Source: Parcubacteria group bacterium | GTDB lineage: Bacteria > Patescibacteriota > Minisyncoccia > Moranbacterales > UBA2206 | Length of the DNA stretch: 64,000 nucleotides | Assembly: GCA_041659505.1 (NCBI GenBank) | Contig: JBAZYF010000002.1 | Location: 51,966 to 115,965, forward strand | Reading direction: 5' to 3' | Shown: positions 22,064 to 57,883 of the stretch, piece by piece | Layout of the letters: each line of letters opens with the position of its first letter | Numbering within the stretch: the first letter of the stretch is position 1 | The notes under the pieces: model-generated | Seen by the model: only the letters and a program-made list of their open reading frames with translations | Told to the model about the DNA's origin: nothing | Database searches by the model: none | Position numbers and translations under genes: made by a program

Positions 22064-22132
22064 TAGCGCTACTATTTACAAAACAGTTGCTCCCTGCCTG
22101 CCGGCAGGCAGGTGCCACTCCGCTACTTCAGC
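22064..22132 (-). pseudogene. truncated duplicate of tRNA-Thr(TGT): 5' half only, 20-bp palindrome inserted in the D-loop
   Basis: GCTGAAGTAGC..GGAGTGGCA[CCTGCCTGCCGGCAGGCAGG]GAGCAACTGTTTTGTAAATAGTAG matches the first ~45 nt of the adjacent tRNA-Thr(TGT); no T-arm or 3' acceptor. Confidence 0.6.
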
Positions 22133-24360: not shown

Positions 24361-24396
24361 CGCCGTAGTCCTGAGTACTCTTAGGACGAAGGAGGA
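24361..24396 (-). promoter_or_regulatory. conserved intergenic hairpin plus anti-SD-like motif upstream of tsf (copy 1 of 2)
   Basis: mRNA-strand GATCCTCCTTCG-GTCCTAAGAGTACTCAGGAC-TACGGCG; near-identical copy upstream of rpmJ. Confidence 0.5.
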
Positions 24397-25928: not shown

Positions 25929-25983
25929 TTTTATAAAGTTGTCGGTTTAGTGTCTCCTGACCTGAACCTCCTAATTCTTAGCT

Positions 25984-26028
25984 AGCTGATTAGAAATAAA
26001 AGGTTCAATTCGGGAGAATTGAACCGAC
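25984..26028 (+). repeat. 45-bp repeat with 10-bp-stem hairpin (GGTTCAATTC-GGGAG-AATTGAACC), copy A
   Basis: AGCTGATTAGAAATAAAAGGTTCAATTCGGGAGAATTGAACCGAC; exact inverted copy at 57819-57863. Confidence 0.7.
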
Positions 26029-27096: not shown

Positions 27097-27267
27097 GTGT
27101 CATTCCCGCGAAGGCGGGAATCCAGGTTCCACGAGCTATGAACTCCAGAAAATCGAACTACAAGTCTAACAAATTCTCTATTTTAGCAAGTCTTGAGTTT
27201 TAATAATTCGTTTTTTCTTTATATTAAGTCTGAGGTGCCTGGATCCCCGCCTTCGCGAGGATGACAC
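27097..27267. mobile_element. MITE-like palindromic element copy 1 (~170 bp, 30-bp hairpin terminal inverted repeats)
   Basis: left GTGTCATTCCCGCGAAGGCGGGAATCCAGG, right CCTGGATCCCCGCCTTCGCGAGGATGACAC; internal ~110 bp homologous to copies 2 and 3. Confidence 0.7.
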
Positions 27268-30967: not shown

Positions 30968-31033
30968 TTTAGTTATACCCGCCTTCGTAATTTACCTACC
31001 CACAGAGATTGGATTTACATCTCTTAGTTTGTC

Positions 31034-31066
31034 CACTGGATTCCCGCCTTCGCGGGAATGACAACT
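31034..31066. repeat. solo copy of the MITE terminal hairpin (CTGGATTCCCGCCTTCGCGGGAATGACAAC) in the rpsM-rpsK intergenic region
   Basis: matches the 30-bp TIR of the MITE family; a degenerate partial (TACCCGCCTTCGTAATT) lies ~45 bp upstream. Confidence 0.6.
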
Positions 31067-31690: not shown

Positions 31691-31726
31691 CGCCGTAGTT
31701 CTGAGTACCCTCAGAACGAAGGAGGA
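31691..31726 (-). promoter_or_regulatory. conserved intergenic hairpin plus anti-SD-like motif between infA and rpmJ (copy 2 of 2)
   Basis: mRNA-strand CTCCTCCTTCG-GTTCTGAGGGTACTCAGAAC-TACGGCG; 31/36 identical to the copy at 24361-24396. Confidence 0.5.
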
Positions 31727-34520: not shown

Positions 34521-35986
34521 TGCCACCAAAAACCTATTTTATCAAAACCTTCGGCTGTCAAATGAACATCTCGGATTCTGAAAGAATCGCCGGCCTCTTG
34601 GAAAGACCTCACCCCAACCCTCTCCTTAGTAAGGAGAGGGGGCTTAAATTAGCAAAAAATATTAACGAGGCAGATTTAGTTATTTTCAACACCTGCGGAA
34701 TCCGCCAAGCCGCGGAAAATAGAGCCTACAGCATTATTCATACCTTACGAAAATCACGACCAAAAATAAAAATTATTCTCACTGGCTGTCTCGCCAATCG
34801 CAAGGATGTTCAGGAAAGATTAAAAGATAAGGTTGATTTGTTTTGTGAAATTAAAGATTTTATAAAATTGGAAAATTGGATCATTAGAAATTGTTTAGAA
34901 ACCTTGCCTACCGGCAGGCAGGTTAGAAATTCGAAATTAGAAATTTTAGCACAAAAAGATGCTCTTCAGCGCGATAAAAATATAAACTATCTTTCCACTC
35001 TACCCAAGCATACCAACAAGCACCAAGCGCTTGTGCCGGTAATGACCGGCTGTAACAATTTCTGCTCCTATTGCGTCGTGCCATATGCTCGAGGACGAGA
35101 AGTTTCAAGGCCAGCTGAAGAAATAATCAACGAGATAAAAACTCTCATCAAAAACGGTTGCAGAGAAATAACGCTTTTGGGGCAGAATGTTAACTCATAC
35201 AATTACTCATCGCGCTCTAAATCCGAAGCCCTAGAAGCTAATGTGGTTTCTACACTAGATTCCCGCCTGCGCAGGAATGACAATAATACAATAACCTTTC
35301 CTAAACTGCTTCGAAAAATCGAAAAAATCCCCGGGCATTTTTGGATCCGGTTTATGTCGTCGCATCCGAAAGATTTTTCTGATGAACTCATTGAGACGAT
35401 TGCTAAATCAAAAAAGGTTTGCGAACACATTCATCTGCCGATCCAAGCTGGATCAGATAAGATTCTTGCTGCCATGAACCGCAAATATACCGCCCAACAC
35501 TATTTAGGTTTAATCAAAAAAATTCGCACTGCTTTCAAAAAGTTCAAACCCGATGCGCCCTATTCCATCACGTCAGATATTATTGTCGGTTTTCCTGGCG
35601 AAACCAAAAAAGATTTTCTCGAAACGGCAAGGATTATGGAAAAGGTAAAATACGACTTGGTCTATTTCGGCCAATTCTCTCCCCGCCCCGGCACAGTCGC
35701 TTGGAAATTGAAAGATAGTGTTTCAAAACAAGAAAAATCCCGCCGTGAAAAATATTTGAATGAAATTTTGGCTCGTACGACTTTTGCCAAGAATAAAAAA
35801 TATGTCGGTAAAATTTTGGAAGTTTTGGTAGACTCAGAAAAAAATGGATTTTATTTCGGACGCACTCGTTCAGGAAAAGATGTCAAAATAATCACCGACC
35901 AAAAAAACCTAACTGAGAAATTTGTAAAAGTTAAGATCACTAAGGCTAATATATGGAATCTAGAAGCTCGTTTGCTGGAAAAGTAG
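34520..35986 (+). CDS. miaB: tRNA methylthiotransferase MiaB with three in-frame palindromic-repeat insertions
   Basis: MTTase N-domain FGCQMN..DSE..NTCGIR, radical-SAM CNNFCSYC, C-terminal TRAM; inserts at 34618-34640, 34903-34922, 35256-35285. Confidence 0.8.
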   Translation: MPPKTYFIKTFGCQMNISDSERIAGLLERPHPNPLLSKERGLKLAKNINEADLVIFNTCGIRQAAENRAYSIIHTLRKSRPKIKIILTGCLANRKDVQERLKDKVDLFCEIKDFIKLENWIIRNCLETLPTGRQVRNSKLEILAQKDALQRDKNINYLSTLPKHTNKHQALVPVMTGCNNFCSYCVVPYARGREVSRPAEEIINEIKTLIKNGCREITLLGQNVNSYNYSSRSKSEALEANVVSTLDSRLRRNDNNTITFPKLLRKIEKIPGHFWIRFMSSHPKDFSDELIETIAKSKKVCEHIHLPIQAGSDKILAAMNRKYTAQHYLGLIKKIRTAFKKFKPDAPYSITSDIIVGFPGETKKDFLETARIMEKVKYDLVYFGQFSPRPGTVAWKLKDSVSKQEKSRREKYLNEILARTTFAKNKKYVGKILEVLVDSEKNGFYFGRTRSGKDVKIITDQKNLTEKFVKVKITKANIWNLEARLLEK

Positions 35987-37008
35987 GAAATAATAAAATA
36001 ATTGTCATTCTTGGCCCCACCTCCTCCGGAAAATCTTCCGTTGCGATTAAACTCGCCCAGAAATTTAATGGGGAAATCATTTCGGTAGACAGCCGACAGA
36101 TTTATCGTGGGATGGATATTGGAACGGGAAAAGTCACAAAAGCGGAGCAAGCACTCGCCAAGCATCATATGCTCGACGTTGTTGGTCCAAAAACTAATTT
36201 CAGCGCAGCGCAGTTCAAAAAATATGCAGAAAAAATAATTGCCGATATTTTGAAACGCGGAAAAGTTCCCATCCTCTGTGGCGGCACCGGTTTTTGGATC
36301 AAAGCTTTGGTCGATGATGTGATTTATCCTGAAGTAAAACCGGACTGGAAACTGCGAGAAGAATTAGGTAAAAAATCTGCAGAGCAACTTTTTGTGATGC
36401 TCAAAAAACTCGATCCGGTTCGCGCGAGAAATATTGATGCTAAAAATCCTGTCCGCCTAATCCGAGCGATTGAAATCTGCAAGACATTAGGCAAGGTACC
36501 ATTACCGATACGAAACAACGAAACAAATGCGAATCTGCGAACTAATTCACAAATTCGCAATTTCGTAGATTCGGATAAATTCGCCTGCCTGCCGGTAGGC
36601 AAGGCAGATTCGCATCGGTTTCATGATTTCCTGCAAATCGGAATTTCCTTGCCCAAGAAAAAACTGCACAAAAACATTGAAAAAAGACTGAAGCAAAGAT
36701 TCGGGGAAGGGATGATTGAAGAAGTGGAAAGATTGCACAGTGAGCAAAAAATCAGCTGGAAAAAAATGGAAAGTTTCGGCCTGGGTTATCTTTGGATTGC
36801 CAAATTCTTACAAAAACAACTCCCGAAAGAGGAGCTGTTTTCCAAAGTCTATTTTTCTGAAAAAGATTATGCTAAGCGCCAGATGACGTGGTTCGGGAAA
36901 GATGAGAGAATTATTTGGCTTGAGAAGTATAGTGAGATTGAAAAAAAAGTAGAAAAGTTTATACGTGTCATTCCCGCAAAGGCGGGAATCCAGGCACCTC
37001 AGGCTTAA
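35953..37008 (+). CDS. miaA: tRNA dimethylallyltransferase MiaA; in-frame palindrome insert; MITE-encoded C-terminus and stop
   Basis: P-loop GPTSSGKSS, ISVDSRQIYRGMDIGTGK; last 14 codons (RVIPAKAGIQAPQA) and stop lie inside the MITE left TIR. Confidence 0.8.
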   Translation: MESRSSFAGKVGNNKIIVILGPTSSGKSSVAIKLAQKFNGEIISVDSRQIYRGMDIGTGKVTKAEQALAKHHMLDVVGPKTNFSAAQFKKYAEKIIADILKRGKVPILCGGTGFWIKALVDDVIYPEVKPDWKLREELGKKSAEQLFVMLKKLDPVRARNIDAKNPVRLIRAIEICKTLGKVPLPIRNNETNANLRTNSQIRNFVDSDKFACLPVGKADSHRFHDFLQIGISLPKKKLHKNIEKRLKQRFGEGMIEEVERLHSEQKISWKKMESFGLGYLWIAKFLQKQLPKEELFSKVYFSEKDYAKRQMTWFGKDERIIWLEKYSEIEKKVEKFIRVIPAKAGIQAPQA

Positions 37009-37134
37009 TATAGGGAAAAACCAACTATTAAAATTCGAGACTTACTAAAATATAGAATTGATTGCACTTGTAATTCGAATTTCTAGATTCTATTACTGAA
37101 GGAACCTGGATTCCCGCCTTCGCGGGAATGACAC
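36965..37134. mobile_element. MITE-like palindromic element copy 2 (inverted relative to copy 1)
   Basis: TIRs GTGTCATTCCCGCAAAGGCGGGAATCCAGG / CCTGGATTCCCGCCTTCGCGGGAATGACAC; internal region ~80% identical to the reverse complement of copy 1. Confidence 0.7.
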
Positions 37135-44229: not shown

Positions 44230-44790
44230 TTATTTCTTTAAATCTTCGATAATTTTATCCACTTGATGATATAACTCCAAAAATGTGCTTTCATTATTAA
44301 CCACGAAATCGGCATAATTTTTCAAATCTTTAATCTGTGATTCAGCTTCTTTTTCATTGTCAGCGACAAACTCCGCATAGGTTTTTTGGGCGTCATCACT
44401 GTTTTCTCTCCGCTTAGTAATGCGATGATAACGAGTGTCCAAGTCCGCTTCGATATAGACCAGCTTAAAACCCGGGAGGCTTTTGAGATATTTGATGTCT
44501 GCCATCCGGCGCACGCCATCAATCACGATCACTTGATGCACATCCGCTTCCACATCATGACAAACTACGCGAGACAAAATGTCACCGTCAAAATTATCCC
44601 GAAAAAGTGTGGAAATTTTTTGCAAATTTTCCCGACTTTCTTCCAGATGCATCCGACGCGCCACATCTCGCAACGATGTTGAAAAGCGATGCGCACTGCC
44701 GTTATGCGTCTCTGTGATATGTTTGGCTATCGTGCCTTTGCCACTGGCAATTTCTCCCGCAATACCTAAGATGATTTTCATGAGTTTCAT
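44230..44790 (-). CDS. P-loop nucleoside/nucleotide kinase-like protein
   Basis: Walker A GIAGEIASGKGT, lid-like DGVRRMADIKYL; small-kinase size. Confidence 0.5.
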   Translation of the reverse strand: MKLMKIILGIAGEIASGKGTIAKHITETHNGSAHRFSTSLRDVARRMHLEESRENLQKISTLFRDNFDGDILSRVVCHDVEADVHQVIVIDGVRRMADIKYLKSLPGFKLVYIEADLDTRYHRITKRRENSDDAQKTYAEFVADNEKEAESQIKDLKNYADFVVNNESTFLELYHQVDKIIEDLKK

Positions 44791-44798
44791 TTTTTACC

Positions 44799-44978
44799 GT
44801 GTCATTCCCGCGAAGGCGGGAATCCAGGCTCCACTAGTTATAAATTACGAACAATCAAATTATGAATCCTCTAACTTCCCTTTACTAACCAGTAAATTCT
44901 GTTTTTCTTTTGCTTGAAACCTGAGGTGTCTGGATCCCTGCCTTCGCGAGCCTGCCTGCCGGTAGGCAGGGATGACAC
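44799..44978. mobile_element. MITE-like palindromic element copy 3, with the 20-bp palindrome nested in its right TIR
   Basis: left TIR GTGTCATTCCCGCGAAGGCGGGAATCCAGG; right TIR CCTTCGCGAG[CCTGCCTGCCGGTAGGCAGG]GATGACAC split by the insert at 44951-44970. Confidence 0.7.
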
Positions 44979-54669: not shown

Positions 54670-56831
54670 TTATTTAAAGATTTTTGCATCAGTCAAAAGT
54701 GCCGAAGCATAAATAGAAAAGACATCAAAAAATTCCAAGTCTTGGTTGGAAAAATCTGGCTTACTCTTGAAACCCAAAAAGATAAATGCTTTTGGTTTGC
54801 TTTTCAAGTACAGTGGTAGCAACATGCAATATTTCAACTTTTTATTTGCGCTGAGTTTTCCCAGTGGCAGATCCTTACAATATCCACGCGCGCAAGATCG
54901 AGCTTGAGCTAAAACTTTCAAAAGTTCTCGGCTCTGCGCTGAGAGACTTCTGATTTCTGCCGGAGTATAATTTTTTGCATCCGTGGCAGATAGCAACCTG
55001 AGCGCGCGCCCATTAACATCTTCGTATTTAAACAATGCCCCAAACCCAGCTGAGGAAAAATTAACCAAAGGACTAAGCATCCGCTCCAGGATTATTTTTT
55101 TTCGGTTTTTATAGCGCACAATCAACTGACTAAGTTCAGAAAGAAAGGAGATTCTCCGATTTATCGTACCGGCGTGCTGGTAGGATTCCAGCAGTTGTTC
55201 TTCTTTCAATTTCCGATCTGTCACATCATTGCCGACTGACAAAATTCCTTCCAGCTTACCCTGCTTGTCATAGAGCGCGCAATTGCGCCAGACGAGCCAG
55301 ACCCGCTCGCCGGTTTTTTTAATATTTTCATTTTCATTTTTCGTATAGTGCCCGGGATTTTTGATGATATCTTTCATCATCAGCGCCAAGTCCCGTCCGG
55401 ATGATTCCGTCTTGGGAATGATAGTGCCTACGGAATTGCGTCCGATAATTTCTTCTTTGCGATAACCAAAAAATTTCTCTGCAAATTCATTAAAAAAGGT
55501 GATGTGACCCCGCGTATCCAATCGTAAGATGACACTATTGACATTCTCGACCAATTCCCGATATTTTCTTTCGCTACCAATCAATTTATCCGTCGCATTA
55601 AATTTTTCCGCTCCTTCTCCGACTAGCGGAGTCAATGATTCAATCCGCCCTATTAGCTCCTGCGAAAACGCATCTTTCTTGTCATCTGCGAGATGTATTG
55701 CTCCAATAATATCCTTTTTACCATAAATCGGAATAAAAGCGACTGAGCAGTAATCCCCCCCCGAAAACATTTGATGCAATATCTATTCTGCTCTTTTCTC
55801 TTGCGCCCTGAGATATAGCCCAAACAGTCACCGGTATAAAAAGATTTTCCCTCCGTCTTACTGGAAATAGCTTGGATGCAGACACATCTTTTTCCATCTG
55901 CACCAACCACTGGCAAGTTTTGATCAGAACTATGATTAGGATTGGCATAAGAATCATACGGCAAATAACCATTCTGATCAAAAATTTTTATGCAGATATG
56001 TCTGCTTCGGGTAAGTTTTTTTACATACTCTAAAACAGCGTCAAAGTAGCTTGATCTAGAATCGGCCCTATTTGATAATCGTAGCAGCTTATTAGTTGTT
56101 AAGAGGTATCTTCTCGCCCGATCGTGACTTTGGCGTAATCGCAGACTCGAAACTCCAAAGGCGAGATCATCCGCTAATTCTTTCAAAAGAGCCGTTTCTT
56201 TATTGCTAAACGCATCTTGATCCTGGGCATAGATTGTCAGCGCTCCGAAAACATCCCCACTAGCGCCTTTATCCTCGAGTGGCAGTGCAATCGAAGAGGC
56301 AAAACCCCTTTTTAGTGCTTCTTTCCTCCAAGGAGCAAGTGCCAAGTCATCCGAAAGATATTGACCGTACTGAATCTTTCGCTCACGAATGGCGCGTCCG
56401 GTCGGACCTTGTCCGCGCAATGTTTTTTCCGACCAGCTAATATTGGCTTTCTCCAAATAACCTTCTTCGAAGCCGGTCTGCGCCACAGGAAGAACGTTTT
56501 TTTCCAAATCTTGCTCGGCACTACCCACCCAAGCCATCCGGTAACCACCAATTTTCACGATGATCCGACAAATATCCTTGAGCAGTTTTTTTTCTTGTTG
56601 AGCATGCACCAGCGCAACATTGCAAGCACTGAGCATTGATATATCTCGATTATGTTTTGCGAGTTCCGCCGTGCGTTCACTTACCCGCTTTTCTAATTCC
56701 TCATTAAGTTTTTTCAAATTCCGCTCCGCTTCAATGTGTTTTGTTTTATTATCAGCAACAAACTTATTTTTTTGTTCTCTTTTCATAGCGTTATTCCTAC
56801 CCCCCGCTAATTTATGCCTTCGAGATAACAC
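54670..56831 (-). pseudogene. GAF-GAF-PAS-GAF sensor protein split by a frameshift at a G8 tract (track ORFs 55653..56831 and 54670..55779)
   Basis: the two ORFs overlap by 127 nt; frames meet at CCCCCCCC (55755-55762); one extra G gives continuous ..YCIKCFRGGDYCSVAFIPIYGKKDIIGAIHLADD.. GAF sequence. Confidence 0.6.
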
Positions 56832-57818: not shown

Positions 57819-57863
57819 GTCGGTTCAATTCTCCCGAATTGAACCTTTTATTTCTAATCAGCT
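57819..57863 (-). repeat. 45-bp hairpin repeat, copy B (inverted relative to copy A)
   Basis: minus strand reads AGCTGATTAGAAATAAAAGGTTCAATTCGGGAGAATTGAACCGAC, identical to 25984-26028. Confidence 0.7.
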
Positions 57864-57883
57864 AAATTAAACTGGATATTTTC

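What the first reader, a model, noticed from the sequence alone, without database searches (positions are those of the whole stretch)
27097..27267. Family of ~170-180 bp MITE-like elements with 30-bp hairpin terminal inverted repeats (3 full copies plus solo ends)
Copies at 27097-27267, 36965-37134 (inverted) and 44799-44978 share near-identical TIRs, GTGTCATTCCCGCGAAGGCGGGAATCCAGG and its reverse complement. Each TIR is itself an 8-bp-stem hairpin. The ~110-bp AT-rich internal regions are clearly homologous. Solo TIR hairpins occur at 31034-31066 (rpsM-rpsK intergenic) and 35256-35285 (inside miaB). All full copies sit between operons, adjacent to terminators or start codons. They have no coding capacity, so they are non-autonomous elements or possibly small structured RNA genes.
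Basis: seen in the sequence. Interest (0 to 1): 0.7.

Follow-up and report, generated by a model that had tools for sequence, protein, structure and literature searches.

The report
Hairpin-ended mini-elements tied to Ssn nuclease
The ~170-bp repeats are real, gene-less mobile-looking elements in an uncultured ultra-small (CPR/Moranbacteria-type) bacterium. Their hairpin ends are the known recognition motif of the Ssn single-strand DNA nuclease, so they are a new member of a recently described repeat system, not a new kind of element.

Summary
In detail: three full copies (27097-27267, 36965-37134 inverted, 44799-44978) and two solo hairpins (31036-31063, 35256-35283).

The 30-nt ends match 27 of 28 positions of the published NTS/SRM motif (CGTCATTCCCGCGMAVGCGGGAATCYRG). 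The small GIY-YIG nuclease SsnA binds and cuts this hairpin only as single-stranded DNA (Chenal 2025). The hairpin core is also the Neisseria dRS3 / REPIN 21-mer.

The window comes from a metagenomic Parcubacteria/Moranbacteria contig, not Coxiella.

- **Spread:** 22 further full-length copies lie in 7 related assemblies, each in different flanks and without target-site duplications.
- **Gene-bearing relatives:** related genomes carry 381-412-bp NTS-ssn-NTS units with the same roughly 36-nt ends. One MAG holds both a unit and at least 5 gene-less copies.
- **Variable occupancy:** the gatB|miaA site holds the element in the window and one relative, an ssn unit in a distant relative, and nothing in two others.
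- **Hairpin selection:** the stems show strong compensatory change. The interior shows no conserved structure.

Best reading: these are gene-less (MITE/REPIN/NIME-like) partners of Ssn units, probably mobilised through ssDNA hairpins. The mobilisation mechanism is inferred, not shown. No ssn gene or transposase lies in the window. Novelty: new member of a known kind.

The parts
27097..27267 (+). Full element, copy 1 (171 bp). Left NTS hairpin at 27097-27126 (ATTCCCGC/GCGGGAAT), AT-rich interior of 111 bp, right hairpin at 27238-27267 (ATCCCCGC../..GAGGAT variant).
   Evidence: 189.7 bits, + strand. It lies 11 nt beyond the T-tail of the intrinsic-terminator-like hairpin at 27302-27278 (- strand) that follows rplM-rpsI. 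As ssDNA it folds into one long hairpin, z = -7.05.
36965..37134 (-). Full element, copy 2 (170 bp, inverted relative to copy 1). It sits between the convergent genes miaA (+) and gatB (-). The miaA reading frame runs 44 nt into it, giving the C-terminus ...RVIPAKAGIQAPQA*.
   Evidence: (179.2 bits, - strand). The orthologous site is occupied in L257, empty in L258 and L260, and holds an NTS-ssn-NTS unit in L268-L277. ssDNA fold z = -9.95.
44799..44978 (+). Full element, copy 3 (180 bp = 160-bp short-type element plus a nested 20-nt palindrome). It lies in the 5' leader of the AAA_17 kinase-like gene (start codon at 44790, - strand), downstream of a promoter-like TTGACG-17-TAAAAT at 45036-45008.
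   Evidence: (147.4 bits). The element is absent from the same spacer in L257, L258 and L260.
44950..44969 (.). Nested 20-nt palindrome (GCCTGCCTGCCGGTAGGCAG) splitting the 3' stem of copy 3's right hairpin. It belongs to a separate small-palindrome family.
   Evidence: (family D5).
31027..31064 (-). Solo NTS hairpin unit (NTS at 31036-31063, 27/28 to the published consensus) in the rpsM-rpsK spacer.
   Evidence: (D2). Also present in independent assemblies of the same organism (L001, L002).
35246..35283 (-). Degenerate solo NTS hairpin unit inside miaB, in frame (encodes ...LDSRLRRND...). It is absent from the MiaB orthologues of L257 and L258.
   Evidence: (D2, 87% to the 31027 unit).

Best explanation
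The elements are gene-less members of an NTS/SRM-hairpin-bounded element family. Their gene-bearing counterparts are compact (381-412 bp) NTS-ssn-NTS units that encode a 96-97-aa single-domain GIY-YIG nuclease of the Ssn type.

**Structure.** Each end is an oriented hairpin: unpaired GTC, an 8-bp stem, a 4-nt loop, then unpaired C-CAG. The two ends point inwards.

**Proposed working (inferred).**
- When the DNA is single-stranded (replication, repair, uptake), the local hairpins extrude.
- An Ssn nuclease supplied in trans by a gene-bearing unit recognises them. SsnA nicks a few nucleotides 5' of the motif, which here falls at or just outside each element boundary, on opposite strands.
- The nicked, hairpin-bounded segment is then copied or recombined into new places without target-site duplication. 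It lands preferentially in short spacers at gene ends, and occasionally in frame inside genes.
- Pairs of NTS hairpins may also act as docking sites where the content between them (the ssn gene or the AT-rich filler) is exchanged.

**Shown here:** motif identity, family membership of the copies, shared ends with ssn units, co-occurrence in one genome, variable occupancy of orthologous sites, absence of TSDs, and selection on the local hairpins.

**Taken from the literature (PMC11893778):** Ssn binds and cuts this motif only as ssDNA.

**Inferred:** that Ssn, rather than another enzyme, drives the spread, and by what route.
For: 1. **Motif identity.** TGTCATTCCCGCGAAGGCGGGAATCCAG matches 27/28 of the NTS consensus and fits the SRM regular expression at 6 window sites (definitions).
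2. **Conservation mirrors the mutagenesis.** Across 91 distinct hairpins, the unpaired GTC and the C after the stem are >=90% conserved. These are the positions the paper found critical for cleavage and binding.
3. **Stem covariation.** 97% of cells are paired, 6 of 8 pairs carry double changes, and 59 compensated cells compare with 10.5 in shuffles, 0/500.
4. **Local, not long-range, compensation.** Changes in the right hairpin (ATCCCCGA/TCGGGGAT) are compensated within that hairpin, not against the left end.
5. **Gene-bearing units with the same ends**, including the extension CCAGG[TC][AT]CCAC: L165 833-1238, L139 6819-7230, L189 345-754, L267 2932-3341. End identity to the window copies is 27-30/30.
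6. **Same polarity.** The ATTCCC-type end lies upstream of ssn and the ATCCCC-type end downstream, as in the gene-less copies.
7. **Survey.** Of 81 ssn homologues in metagenome loci, 40 are flanked on both sides (+ upstream, - downstream) and 24 on one side.
8. **Co-occurrence.** Assembly GCA_049304095.1 carries one ssn unit (L267) and at least 5 gene-less copies (L128, L148, L151, L166, L169).
9. **Spread.** 22 further full-length copies lie in 7 assemblies, with unrelated flanks and no TSD.
10. **Occupancy varies.** At gatB|miaA: element in the window and L257, empty in L258 and L260, ssn unit in the same orientation in L268-L277. At the ftsX/kinase leader: element only in the window.
11. 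**Sample co-occurrence.** An exact Ssn (P0121) with matching ends occurs in two of the samples that also hold the window organism's exact RpoA.
Against: - No ssn gene lies in the 64-kb window. The only GIY-YIG gene there (11518-11796, -) is UPF0213-like (PDB 1ywl, E = 8e-16), only 33% identical to the NTS-flanked proteins, and not flanked by hairpins.
- Whether the window organism itself has an ssn unit is unproven.
- Beyond the 30-nt hairpin ends and roughly 6-25 adjoining nt (36-55 nt in all), homology between the gene-less elements and ssn units is marginal (1-30 of 300 shuffles score as well). A simple deletion origin is therefore not shown.
- GIY-YIG enzymes hydrolyse DNA and form no covalent intermediate, so they cannot by themselves rejoin strands. 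No transposition by Ssn has ever been demonstrated. In Neisseria its shown role is restriction of transforming ssDNA.
- CDD assignment of the Moranbacteria proteins to cd10448 could not be run.
Confidence: 0.6

Rival explanations
1. REPINs mobilised by a RAYT. The doublet of inverted hairpins is a REPIN, and a REP-associated tyrosine (Y1, IS200-like) transposase encoded elsewhere in the genome replicates it as an ssDNA hairpin. Bertels & Rainey propose this for the same 21-mer in Neisseria.
For: - The architecture meets the REPIN definition: two inverted copies less than 130 bp apart.
- The whole element folds as one long ssDNA hairpin, z = -7 to -10.
- The core 21-mer ATTCCCGCG.AGGCGGGAATC is the Neisseria REPIN sequence.
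- There is no TSD, as expected for HUH/Y1 chemistry.
Against: - No Y1_Tnp family appears in the Pfam hits on record for the called genes over window 1853-64000.
- phmmer with IS608 TnpA (sequence recalled from memory, not from a database) found nothing in any ORF of the window or the 124 loci (L001-L004, L005-L124) then held. Sensitivity to distant RAYTs is limited.
- The gene actually bracketed by the hairpins is ssn, in 40-64 of 81 cases.
- Compensation is local to each hairpin, not across the two ends.
Confidence: 0.15
2. NIME-like recombination spacers. [quoted passage not shown] Copies spread and swap by recombination and DNA uptake, while Ssn only restricts hairpin-bearing ssDNA.
For: - The dRS3-RS-dRS3 architecture with an AT-rich filler matches the NIME definition.
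- The same site can hold either an ssn gene or the filler between identically oriented hairpins.
- The same roughly 24-nt loop insertion recurs in unrelated copies and at either end, which suggests gene conversion.
- The shown role of SsnA is restriction of transformation.
Against: - No recombinase or integrase is recorded over window 1853-64000.
- Copies are isolated units, not arrays.
- Insertion into unrelated sites, including coding sequence lacking any pre-existing hairpin in the orthologues, needs more than recombination between existing hairpins.
Confidence: 0.15
3. Host-functional RNA or regulatory elements (terminators, mRNA stabilisers, small RNA genes) kept at each locus for their own sake.
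For: - Copies sit at gene ends, after a terminator (copy 1) and in a 5' leader (copy 3), so they are probably transcribed.
- The hairpins are under structural selection.
Against: - Orthologous loci are empty in close relatives.
- Copies occur in both orientations and inside coding sequence.
- No T-tract follows the hairpins, and none was called terminator-like.
- The interior has no conserved or covarying structure.
- There is no Rfam match.
- SsnA does not bind the motif as RNA.
Confidence: 0.05
4. A classical MITE: a deletion derivative of a DDE-transposase insertion sequence, moved by cut-and-paste.
For: Terminal inverted repeats, small size, AT-rich interior, multiple copies.
Against: - None of the 25 copies has a target-site duplication.
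- No transposase shares the ends.
- The ends are a universal hairpin motif found in contigs of 28-72% G+C.
Confidence: 0.03

Closest known systems
NTS / SRM hairpin repeats and the Ssn (GIY-YIG, cd10448) ssDNA nuclease family (Chenal et al., Nat Commun 2025, PMC11893778)
   Same: - The hairpin matches 27/28 of the NTS consensus and fits the SRM pattern.
- Conserved unpaired GTC and C, and the same oriented hairpin.
- Related genomes have NTS-ssn-NTS units in the same inward-pointing arrangement.
- The proteins are single-domain GIY-YIG of 96-97 aa, with the same Y/Y/E spacing as SsnA Y6/Y17/E64.
   Different: - The host is a CPR/Parcubacteria bacterium. The paper surveyed RefSeq reference genomes and highlighted Neisseria, Wolbachia, Rickettsia and Sphingomonas.
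- Here the hairpins bound a conserved 100-110-bp gene-less interior that forms a discrete, polar, multi-copy family.
- Ends are asymmetric: ATTCCC on the left, ATCCCC on the right.
- No ssn gene lies in the window.
Neisserial intergenic mosaic elements (NIMEs: dRS3-RS-dRS3; Parkhill 2000; Bentley 2007, PMC1797815)
   Same: 20-bp ATTCCC-N8-GGGAAT inverted repeats flank a 50-150-bp AT-richer repeat sequence. The location is intergenic.
   Different: - Units are isolated, not long arrays.
- There is one RS family rather than more than 100.
- NIMEs were stated not to occur outside Neisseria.
- Some units here sit inside coding sequence.
REPINs and RAYTs (Bertels & Rainey; bioRxiv 10.1101/2021.07.10.451892)
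   Same: Two inverted REP-like sequences less than 130 bp apart, predicted to form a long ssDNA hairpin. The 21-mer is identical to that of the Neisseria REPIN population. No TSD.
   Different: - No RAYT was found.
- The hairpins bracket a GIY-YIG gene instead.
- The spacer is long and conserved.
- Compensation is within each hairpin.
Rickettsia palindromic elements (RPEs), from my own knowledge, not tested here
   Same: Small palindromic repeats in a reduced genome that insert in frame into essential protein-coding genes and are tolerated.
   Different: Sequence, size and host are unrelated. RPEs have no known associated nuclease.
Coxiella burnetii QMITE2 / GTAG REP (Wachter 2018, PMC5896051)
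   Same: 150-190-bp MITE-like repeats with 23-29-bp TIRs at gene 3' ends in a roughly 42% G+C genome. Full-size and solo versions exist.
   Different: - The QMITE2 core is a GTAG palindrome, it has 7-11-bp direct repeats, and it is an IS1111 target.
- The window is not Coxiella.
- The ends here are NTS hairpins without direct repeats.

Membership tests
NTS/SRM repeat (Ssn-related motif) | Matches CGTCATTCCCGCGMAVGCGGGAATCYRG with at most 1 mismatch (the paper's search rule) | tested here: met
   Four window hairpins match 27/28, differing only at position 1 (T for C): 27098-27125, 31036-31063(-), 37106-37133(-), 44800-44827.
NTS/SRM repeat (Ssn-related motif) | Fits the degenerate SRM pattern HGTCWYN(0-2)YYVSBRHN(0-5)WNVSBRGN(0-2)RNCYNB | tested here: met
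   Six element hairpins fit. There is one unrelated chance hit at 54921.
NTS/SRM repeat (Ssn-related motif) | Hairpin-forming palindrome with conserved, oriented, non-palindromic flanks | tested here: met
   97% of cells paired, compensatory changes at 6 of 8 pairs, 0/500 shuffles. GTC and C are >=90% conserved.
NTS/SRM repeat (Ssn-related motif) | Spatial association with an ssn gene (NTS on both sides of the gene) | tested here: inconclusive
   Not met in the window, which has no ssn. Met in related Moranbacteria genomes (L139, L165, L189, L267, L268) and in 40 of 81 metagenomic homologues. The rest of the window organism's genome could not be read.
NTS/SRM repeat (Ssn-related motif) | Bound and cut by the cognate Ssn as ssDNA only | not testable with these tools
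   Biochemistry is required. It has been shown for the Neisseria and Wolbachia homologues.
Ssn nuclease family (cd10448) - for the NTS-flanked proteins of related loci | Single-domain GIY-YIG protein of about 94 aa assigned to CDD cd10448, with E<1e-10 to N. meningitidis SsnA | tested here: inconclusive
   PF01541 is the only domain above its curated cut-off. Length is 96-97 aa. The Y7/Y18/E65 spacing equals SsnA Y6/Y17/E64. The proteins show only a weak match to UPF0213 structures (E = 0.57), unlike the window's own GIY-YIG.
NIME (dRS3-RS-dRS3) | 20-bp ATTCCC-N8-GGGAAT repeats flanking a 50-150-bp repeat sequence | tested here: met
   Five hairpins fit dRS3 exactly. The right ends of copies 1 and 3 are ATCCCC variants. 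Interiors are 100-111 bp.
NIME (dRS3-RS-dRS3) | Organisation in arrays of many dRS3 separated by diverse RS families | tested here: not met
   Only isolated units with a single interior family were seen.
REPIN-RAYT | Two REP sequences in inverted orientation less than 130 bp apart that form a hairpin in ssDNA | tested here: met
   Spacing is 100-111 bp. The long-hairpin fold has z = -7.05 and -9.95.
REPIN-RAYT | Cognate RAYT (Y1 transposase) in the genome, itself flanked by the REP | tested here: inconclusive
   None is recorded over window 1853-64000, and none was found by phmmer (IS608 TnpA, recalled from memory) in the window or the 124 loci (L001-L124) then held. The genome is incomplete and the search has low sensitivity.
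Classical (DDE) MITE | Target-site duplication flanking the TIRs | tested here: not met
   None of the 25 aligned copies with flanks has a direct repeat.
Classical (DDE) MITE | An autonomous IS with the same TIRs that encodes a transposase | tested here: not met
   The only gene found between the same ends is a GIY-YIG nuclease.
Coxiella QMITE2 | GTAG-REP core, 7-11-bp direct repeats, Coxiella host | tested here: not met
   The host is Parcubacteria/Moranbacteria. The ends are NTS hairpins and there are no direct repeats.

The most novel reading that the evidence does not exclude
NTS-ssn-NTS units of 381-412 bp would be autonomous mobile elements, the smallest known. Their 'transposase' would be a 96-97-aa GIY-YIG ssDNA endonuclease acting on hairpin ends. 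The window's ~170-bp elements and ~36-nt solo hairpins would be their MITE-like and minimal derivatives. These elements would actively colonise even roughly 1-Mb CPR genomes, inserting without duplications at gene ends and in frame inside essential genes such as miaB and miaA.
Probability: 0.35. Interest if true: 0.8.

Novelty: new member of a known kind. Interest (0 to 1): 0.5.

Why it matters
Chenal et al. (2025) noted that NTS-ssnA-NTS looks like an insertion sequence but had no evidence of mobility. This locus and its relatives supply the comparative signs expected of a mobile family:
- gene-bearing and gene-less forms that share asymmetric ends within one genome;
- occupied and empty orthologous sites;
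- the same site holding either form.

The setting is a lineage, CPR/Moranbacteria, that no study found in the literature searches here has examined for these repeats. If Ssn does mobilise them, this would be a mechanistically new class of very small mobile element, and a natural source of Ssn/hairpin pairs for ssDNA tools.

It also shows that ultra-small genomes tolerate several families of tiny palindromes inside essential genes. That matters for annotating and binning such genomes, because it produces spurious C-terminal extensions and 'VIPAKAGIQ/SFPRRRES' peptides.

Tried and rejected
1. **Coxiella QMITE1/QMITE2.** This was my first guess, from the 42% G+C and the repeat style. It was rejected: the exact RpoA and GatB occur only in metagenome or Parcubacteria records, and QMITE2 has a GTAG core with direct repeats.
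2. **Rfam at gathering thresholds.** Only tRNAs were found, nothing at the elements.
3. **The window's own GIY-YIG gene (11518-11796) as the cognate nuclease.** It is UPF0213-like, 33% identical to the NTS-flanked proteins, and has no hairpins nearby. It was not assigned.
4. **Simple internal-deletion origin from an ssn unit.** Beyond the shared ends the similarity is marginal: L189 7/300, L165 1/300 and L139 30/300 shuffles score as well, and there is none for L185/L268-type units.
5. **Target-site duplications or a target motif.** None found. The A-rich right flanks and TAA-ending left flanks look like ordinary ends of convergent genes.
6. **Y1 transposase search** with IS608 TnpA (sequence recalled from memory) over the ORFs of the window and the 124 loci (L001-L124) held at that point: nothing.
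7. **Conserved internal RNA structure.** None. Only the end-to-end stem is predicted, with 0 compensated pairs.
8. **Linking an ssn unit to the window organism.** The exact Ssn P0121 co-occurs with the organism's exact RpoA in 2 samples, but on other contigs, so this is unproven.
9. **One contig look-up failed** because the gene caller used another start codon.
10. **Ssn paper supplements** are not held, so SsnA's sequence and the SRM genome table could not be used.
Full report
**1. Observation**

The 30-mer GTGTCATTCCCGCGAAGGCGGGAATCCAGG has 6 matches at <=3 mismatches, against 0.00 expected. The palindromic core ATTCCCGC-N4-GCGGGAAT also recovers the degenerate copy inside miaB.

The interiors are homologous at 72-82%. 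A profile built from them scores 147-190 bits in one orientation and only 53-68 in the other, so the element has a polarity.

Four details need correcting:
- Copy 1's right end is an ATCCCC/GGGGAT-type variant.
- Copy 3 is long only because a separate 20-nt palindrome (44950-44969) is nested in its right hairpin.
- Copy 2 provides the last 14 codons and the stop of miaA.
- The solo units are about 36-38 nt, with their own outer 5-nt inverted repeat (D2).

**2. Source organism**

At about 42% G+C the repeats first suggested Coxiella and its QMITEs, but this was wrong.
- The exact RpoA occurs only on metagenome contigs.
- The window is ENA ERZ27247358 contig k141_1494080, positions 193,697-129,698.
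- NCBI names its exact GatB as from a 'Parcubacteria group bacterium', and the named homologues at 73-77% identity are Candidatus Moranbacteria.
- Gene content fits a CPR genome: short EF-Ts, and infA-rpmJ-rpsM-rpsK-rpsD-rpoA-rplQ-rplM-rpsI.

**3. What the ends are**

A literature string search led to two papers.

Chenal et al. 2025 (PMC11893778) define the 28-nt 'Neisseria Transformation Sequence' CGTCATTCCCGCGMAVGCGGGAATCYRG. It contains the classical dRS3 repeat ATTCCC-N8-GGGAAT. They also define a degenerate 'Ssn-related motif' (SRM). They show that SsnA, a 94-aa single-domain GIY-YIG protein, binds the hairpin and cuts a few nucleotides upstream of it. It does this only on ssDNA, only on one strand, and not on RNA. 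They remark that NTS-ssnA-NTS resembles an insertion sequence.

Bertels & Rainey treat the same 21-mer in Neisseria as a REPIN replicated by a RAYT.

The window hairpin TGTCATTCCCGCGAAGGCGGGAATCCAG matches the NTS at 27/28 positions, and six hairpins fit the SRM pattern.

**4. The hairpin is under selection as a local hairpin**

I collected 91 distinct hairpins from the window, the related genomes and the ssn loci.
- 97% of stem cells pair.
- 6 of 8 pairs show double (compensatory) changes.
- There are 59 compensated cells against 10.5 in shuffles, 0/500. Slid controls collapse to 19-58% pairing.
- The unpaired GTC on the 5' side and the C just after the stem are >=90% conserved. These are the positions the mutagenesis found critical for cutting and binding.

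Within the element family, the right hairpin differs systematically from the left: ATCCCCGC/GCGGGGAT or ATCCCCGA/TCGGGGAT against ATTCCCGC/GCGGGAAT. These changes are compensated inside the right hairpin and break pairing with the left end. The whole element is still predicted to fold into one long ssDNA hairpin, z = -7 and -10. The interior has no conserved structure, and the end-to-end stem has no compensated pair.

**5. The family beyond the window**

One scan of species-representative genomes, using the left end plus 5 interior bases, gave 52 loci. Most are from Candidatus Moraniibacteriota MAGs.

Profile search found 22 further full-length, correctly oriented copies (95-137 bits) in 7 assemblies. 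Every copy has unrelated flanks, boundaries are sharp at [GT]TGTCAT...ATGACAC, and there are no target-site duplications. A long and a short sub-type exist.

Hairpin loops are themselves insertion points. The same roughly 24-nt sequence (GGAGTTTATGCTCGTGAAACGGGTG) sits in the right loop of four copies and, reverse-complemented, in the left loop of L257. L154 and L167 are orthologous copies that differ only by that insertion.

**6. Gene-bearing counterparts**

Searching all fetched ORFs with the window's GIY-YIG protein turned up small GIY-YIG genes bracketed by the element's ends in Moranbacteria MAG ELA120: L165 833-1238 and L139 6819-7230.

A metagenome scan with the L165 protein returned at least 530 relatives. 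Among the 80 best loci (81 genes):
- 40 genes have an NTS-like hairpin on both sides, always + upstream and - downstream;
- 24 have one on a single side;
- the host contigs range from 28 to 67% G+C.

The Moranbacteria-type units (L165/L177, L139, L185, L189, L267, L268) share with the window elements the universal hairpin, the outer GTGTC, and the extension CCAGG[TC][AT]CCAC. L189 and L267 also have the same asymmetry: ATTCCC end upstream of ssn, ATCCCC end downstream. End identity is 27-30/30, plus 60-76% over the next 25 nt on the right.

The proteins have PF01541 as the only domain above its curated cut-off and are 96-97 aa long. They carry Tyr/Tyr/Glu at the spacing of SsnA's Y6/Y17/E64. 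They are only weakly similar to UPF0213 structures.

Beyond the ends, similarity between the gene-less interior and the ssn units is marginal. I therefore do not claim a simple deletion origin.

Assembly GCA_049304095.1 contains both one ssn unit (L267) and at least five gene-less copies.

**7. Occupied and empty sites**

Using GatB homologues of graded identity, I fetched orthologous regions.

At the convergent gatB|miaA junction:

| Genome (GatB identity to window) | State of the site |
|---|---|
| Window | Element present, same orientation as L257 |
| L257 (93%) | Element present; MiaA ends in element-encoded ...VIPA(K/E)AGIQAPQ... |
| L258 (91%) | Empty; MiaA ends natively (...KKFLDL*) |
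| L260 (84%) | Empty; MiaA ends natively (...VKFLQ*); this genome has the family elsewhere (L173) |
| L268-L277, RIFCSPLOWO2_02_FULL_48_19 lineage (68%) | A 381-bp NTS-ssn-NTS unit at the same junction, in the same orientation |

The site has therefore been hit repeatedly, or the content between docked hairpins is exchangeable.

At the ftsX/kinase leader, copy 3 lies between a conserved promoter-like TTGACG-17-TAAAAT and the start codon. L257 and L258 carry other small palindromes in that position. L260 has a short leader without the element, and gene coordinates give L259 and L261 spacers of only 11 nt.

L257 has an extra element-like insertion between miaB and the tRNA-synthetase gene called at L257 16041-17855 (Pfam tRNA_SAD, tRNA-synt_2b, HGTP_anticodon). 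The window lacks it.

**8. What is and is not in the window**

Pfam hits on record for the called genes, covering positions 1853-64000, show no Y1 or DDE transposase and no integrase.

The only nuclease candidate is an 81-92-aa GIY-YIG gene at 11518-11796 (-). It is UPF0213-like (PDB 1ywl, E = 8e-16), 33% identical to the NTS-flanked proteins, and has no hairpins near it.

An Ssn with matching ends (P0121, at a ychF-ssn-uppP locus) occurs in two samples that also contain this organism's exact RpoA. Co-residence in one genome is not shown.

**9. Interpretation**

Shown:
- The elements are a discrete, polar, multi-copy, gene-less family.
- Their ends are the NTS/SRM hairpin.
- They share specific, asymmetric ends with ssn-encoding units in the same lineage, and in one case the same genome.
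- They vary in occupancy at orthologous sites and make no TSD.
- Selection acts on the local hairpins and on the unpaired bases that Ssn reads.

From the literature: Ssn binds and cuts this hairpin as ssDNA, a few nucleotides 5' of the motif.

Inferred:
- An Ssn supplied in trans nicks at or just outside both boundaries. The two motifs point inwards, so the nicks fall on opposite strands.
- The segment is then propagated by a copy or recombination route that needs host functions, because GIY-YIG enzymes do not rejoin DNA.

I put the identity claim at about 0.85 and the Ssn-driven mobility claim at about 0.45. The main rivals are RAYT-driven REPIN replication and NIME-style recombination. A host RNA function and a classical DDE MITE are poorly supported.

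**10. Comparison and novelty**

The system is the NTS/SRM-Ssn repeat system, with the dRS3-RS-dRS3 (NIME) architecture and REPIN geometry.

New here:
- the host lineage (CPR);
- a well-defined gene-less family with a conserved interior;
- comparative evidence bearing on mobility, including an ssn unit and a gene-less element at the same junction in different lineages.

The Ssn authors raised mobility only as a hypothesis. This is a new member of a known kind, of moderate interest in itself. It would be of higher interest if Ssn units prove to be autonomous mobile elements.

Noticed in passing
window 22092-22113, 34902-34923, 36583-36604, 44950-44969: A second family of about 20-22-nt palindromes (CCTGCCTGCCGGTAGGCAGG). 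One is intergenic near the tRNA cluster. One is in frame in miaB (adds TLPTGRQ, absent from the L257/L258 orthologues). One is in frame in miaA (ACLPVGK, inside a window-specific insertion of about 25-30 aa). One is nested in copy 3's right hairpin. A related in-frame palindrome sits in L260 MiaA (LPVKKAGKKK).
   Followed up: partly
window ~34607-34642 (palindrome at 34622-34641); L189 318-337; L264 379; L265 462: A third small palindrome, CTCCT(A/T)AG(C/T)AAGGAGAGGGG. In the window it is an in-frame 10-aa insertion (PHPNPLLSKERG) near the N-terminus of MiaB, absent from the orthologues. The same palindrome lies directly upstream of the ssn unit at the ychF-uppP locus. Relatives carry variants in the ftsX/kinase leader. 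The window's miaB therefore holds three different in-frame palindrome insertions.
   Followed up: partly
L159, L167, L170, L135 (right hairpin loops); L257 11485-11675 (left hairpin loop): The same roughly 24-nt sequence (GGAGTTTATGCTCGTGAAACGGGTG) is inserted in the loop of NTS hairpins of unrelated copies, at either end and in either orientation. L154 and L167 are orthologous copies differing only by it. This suggests either a tiny mobile insert or gene conversion between hairpins.
   Followed up: partly
window 11518-11796 (-): A small single-domain GIY-YIG gene (81-92 aa) of the UPF0213/YhbQ type between two ABC-transporter genes. It is not flanked by NTS hairpins and its role is unknown. 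Whether it can act on the hairpins was not tested.
   Followed up: partly
L268-L277 (e.g. L268 2959-3339): In the Moranbacteria RIFCSPLOWO2_02_FULL_48_19 lineage, seen in 10 samples, the NTS-ssn-NTS unit sits exactly at the gatB|miaA junction that holds copy 2 in the window. This points to target preference or cassette exchange.
   Followed up: yes
window 25983-26028 and 57819-57864: A perfect 46-nt inverted repeat pair 31.8 kb apart (TAGCTGATTAGAAATAAAAGGTTCAATTCGGGAGAATTGAACCGAC). It contains its own 10-bp hairpin. Both copies are intergenic. It may be another repeat family or a shared terminator.
   Followed up: no
window 24361-24396 and 31691-31726: A 36-nt direct repeat, 89% identical (CGCCGTAGTCCTGAGTACTCTTAGGACGAAGGAGGA), with an internal palindrome. 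It occurs in two ribosomal-protein operon spacers: rpsB|tsf and infA|rpmJ.
   Followed up: no
Viral-contig loci L005-L124 (e.g. L022, L098, L016): The NTS core occurs in more than 120 IMG/VR contigs of 32-72% G+C, including Neisseria-like arrays with up to 13 copies. Translated, it yields the recurrent peptides SFPRRRES / VIPAKAGIQ / WIPAFAGMT / LDSRLRGND that appear in spurious ORFs. The window shows this in the miaA C-terminal extension and several listed ORFs.
   Followed up: partly
L258 7421-7550: In this relative the sequence encoding the conserved GatB C-terminus (ANPQVAEEFLRKKL*) lies after the called gatB stop, in a separate 31-aa ORF. This suggests a frameshift, an insertion or an assembly problem at the gatB 3' end.
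   Followed up: no
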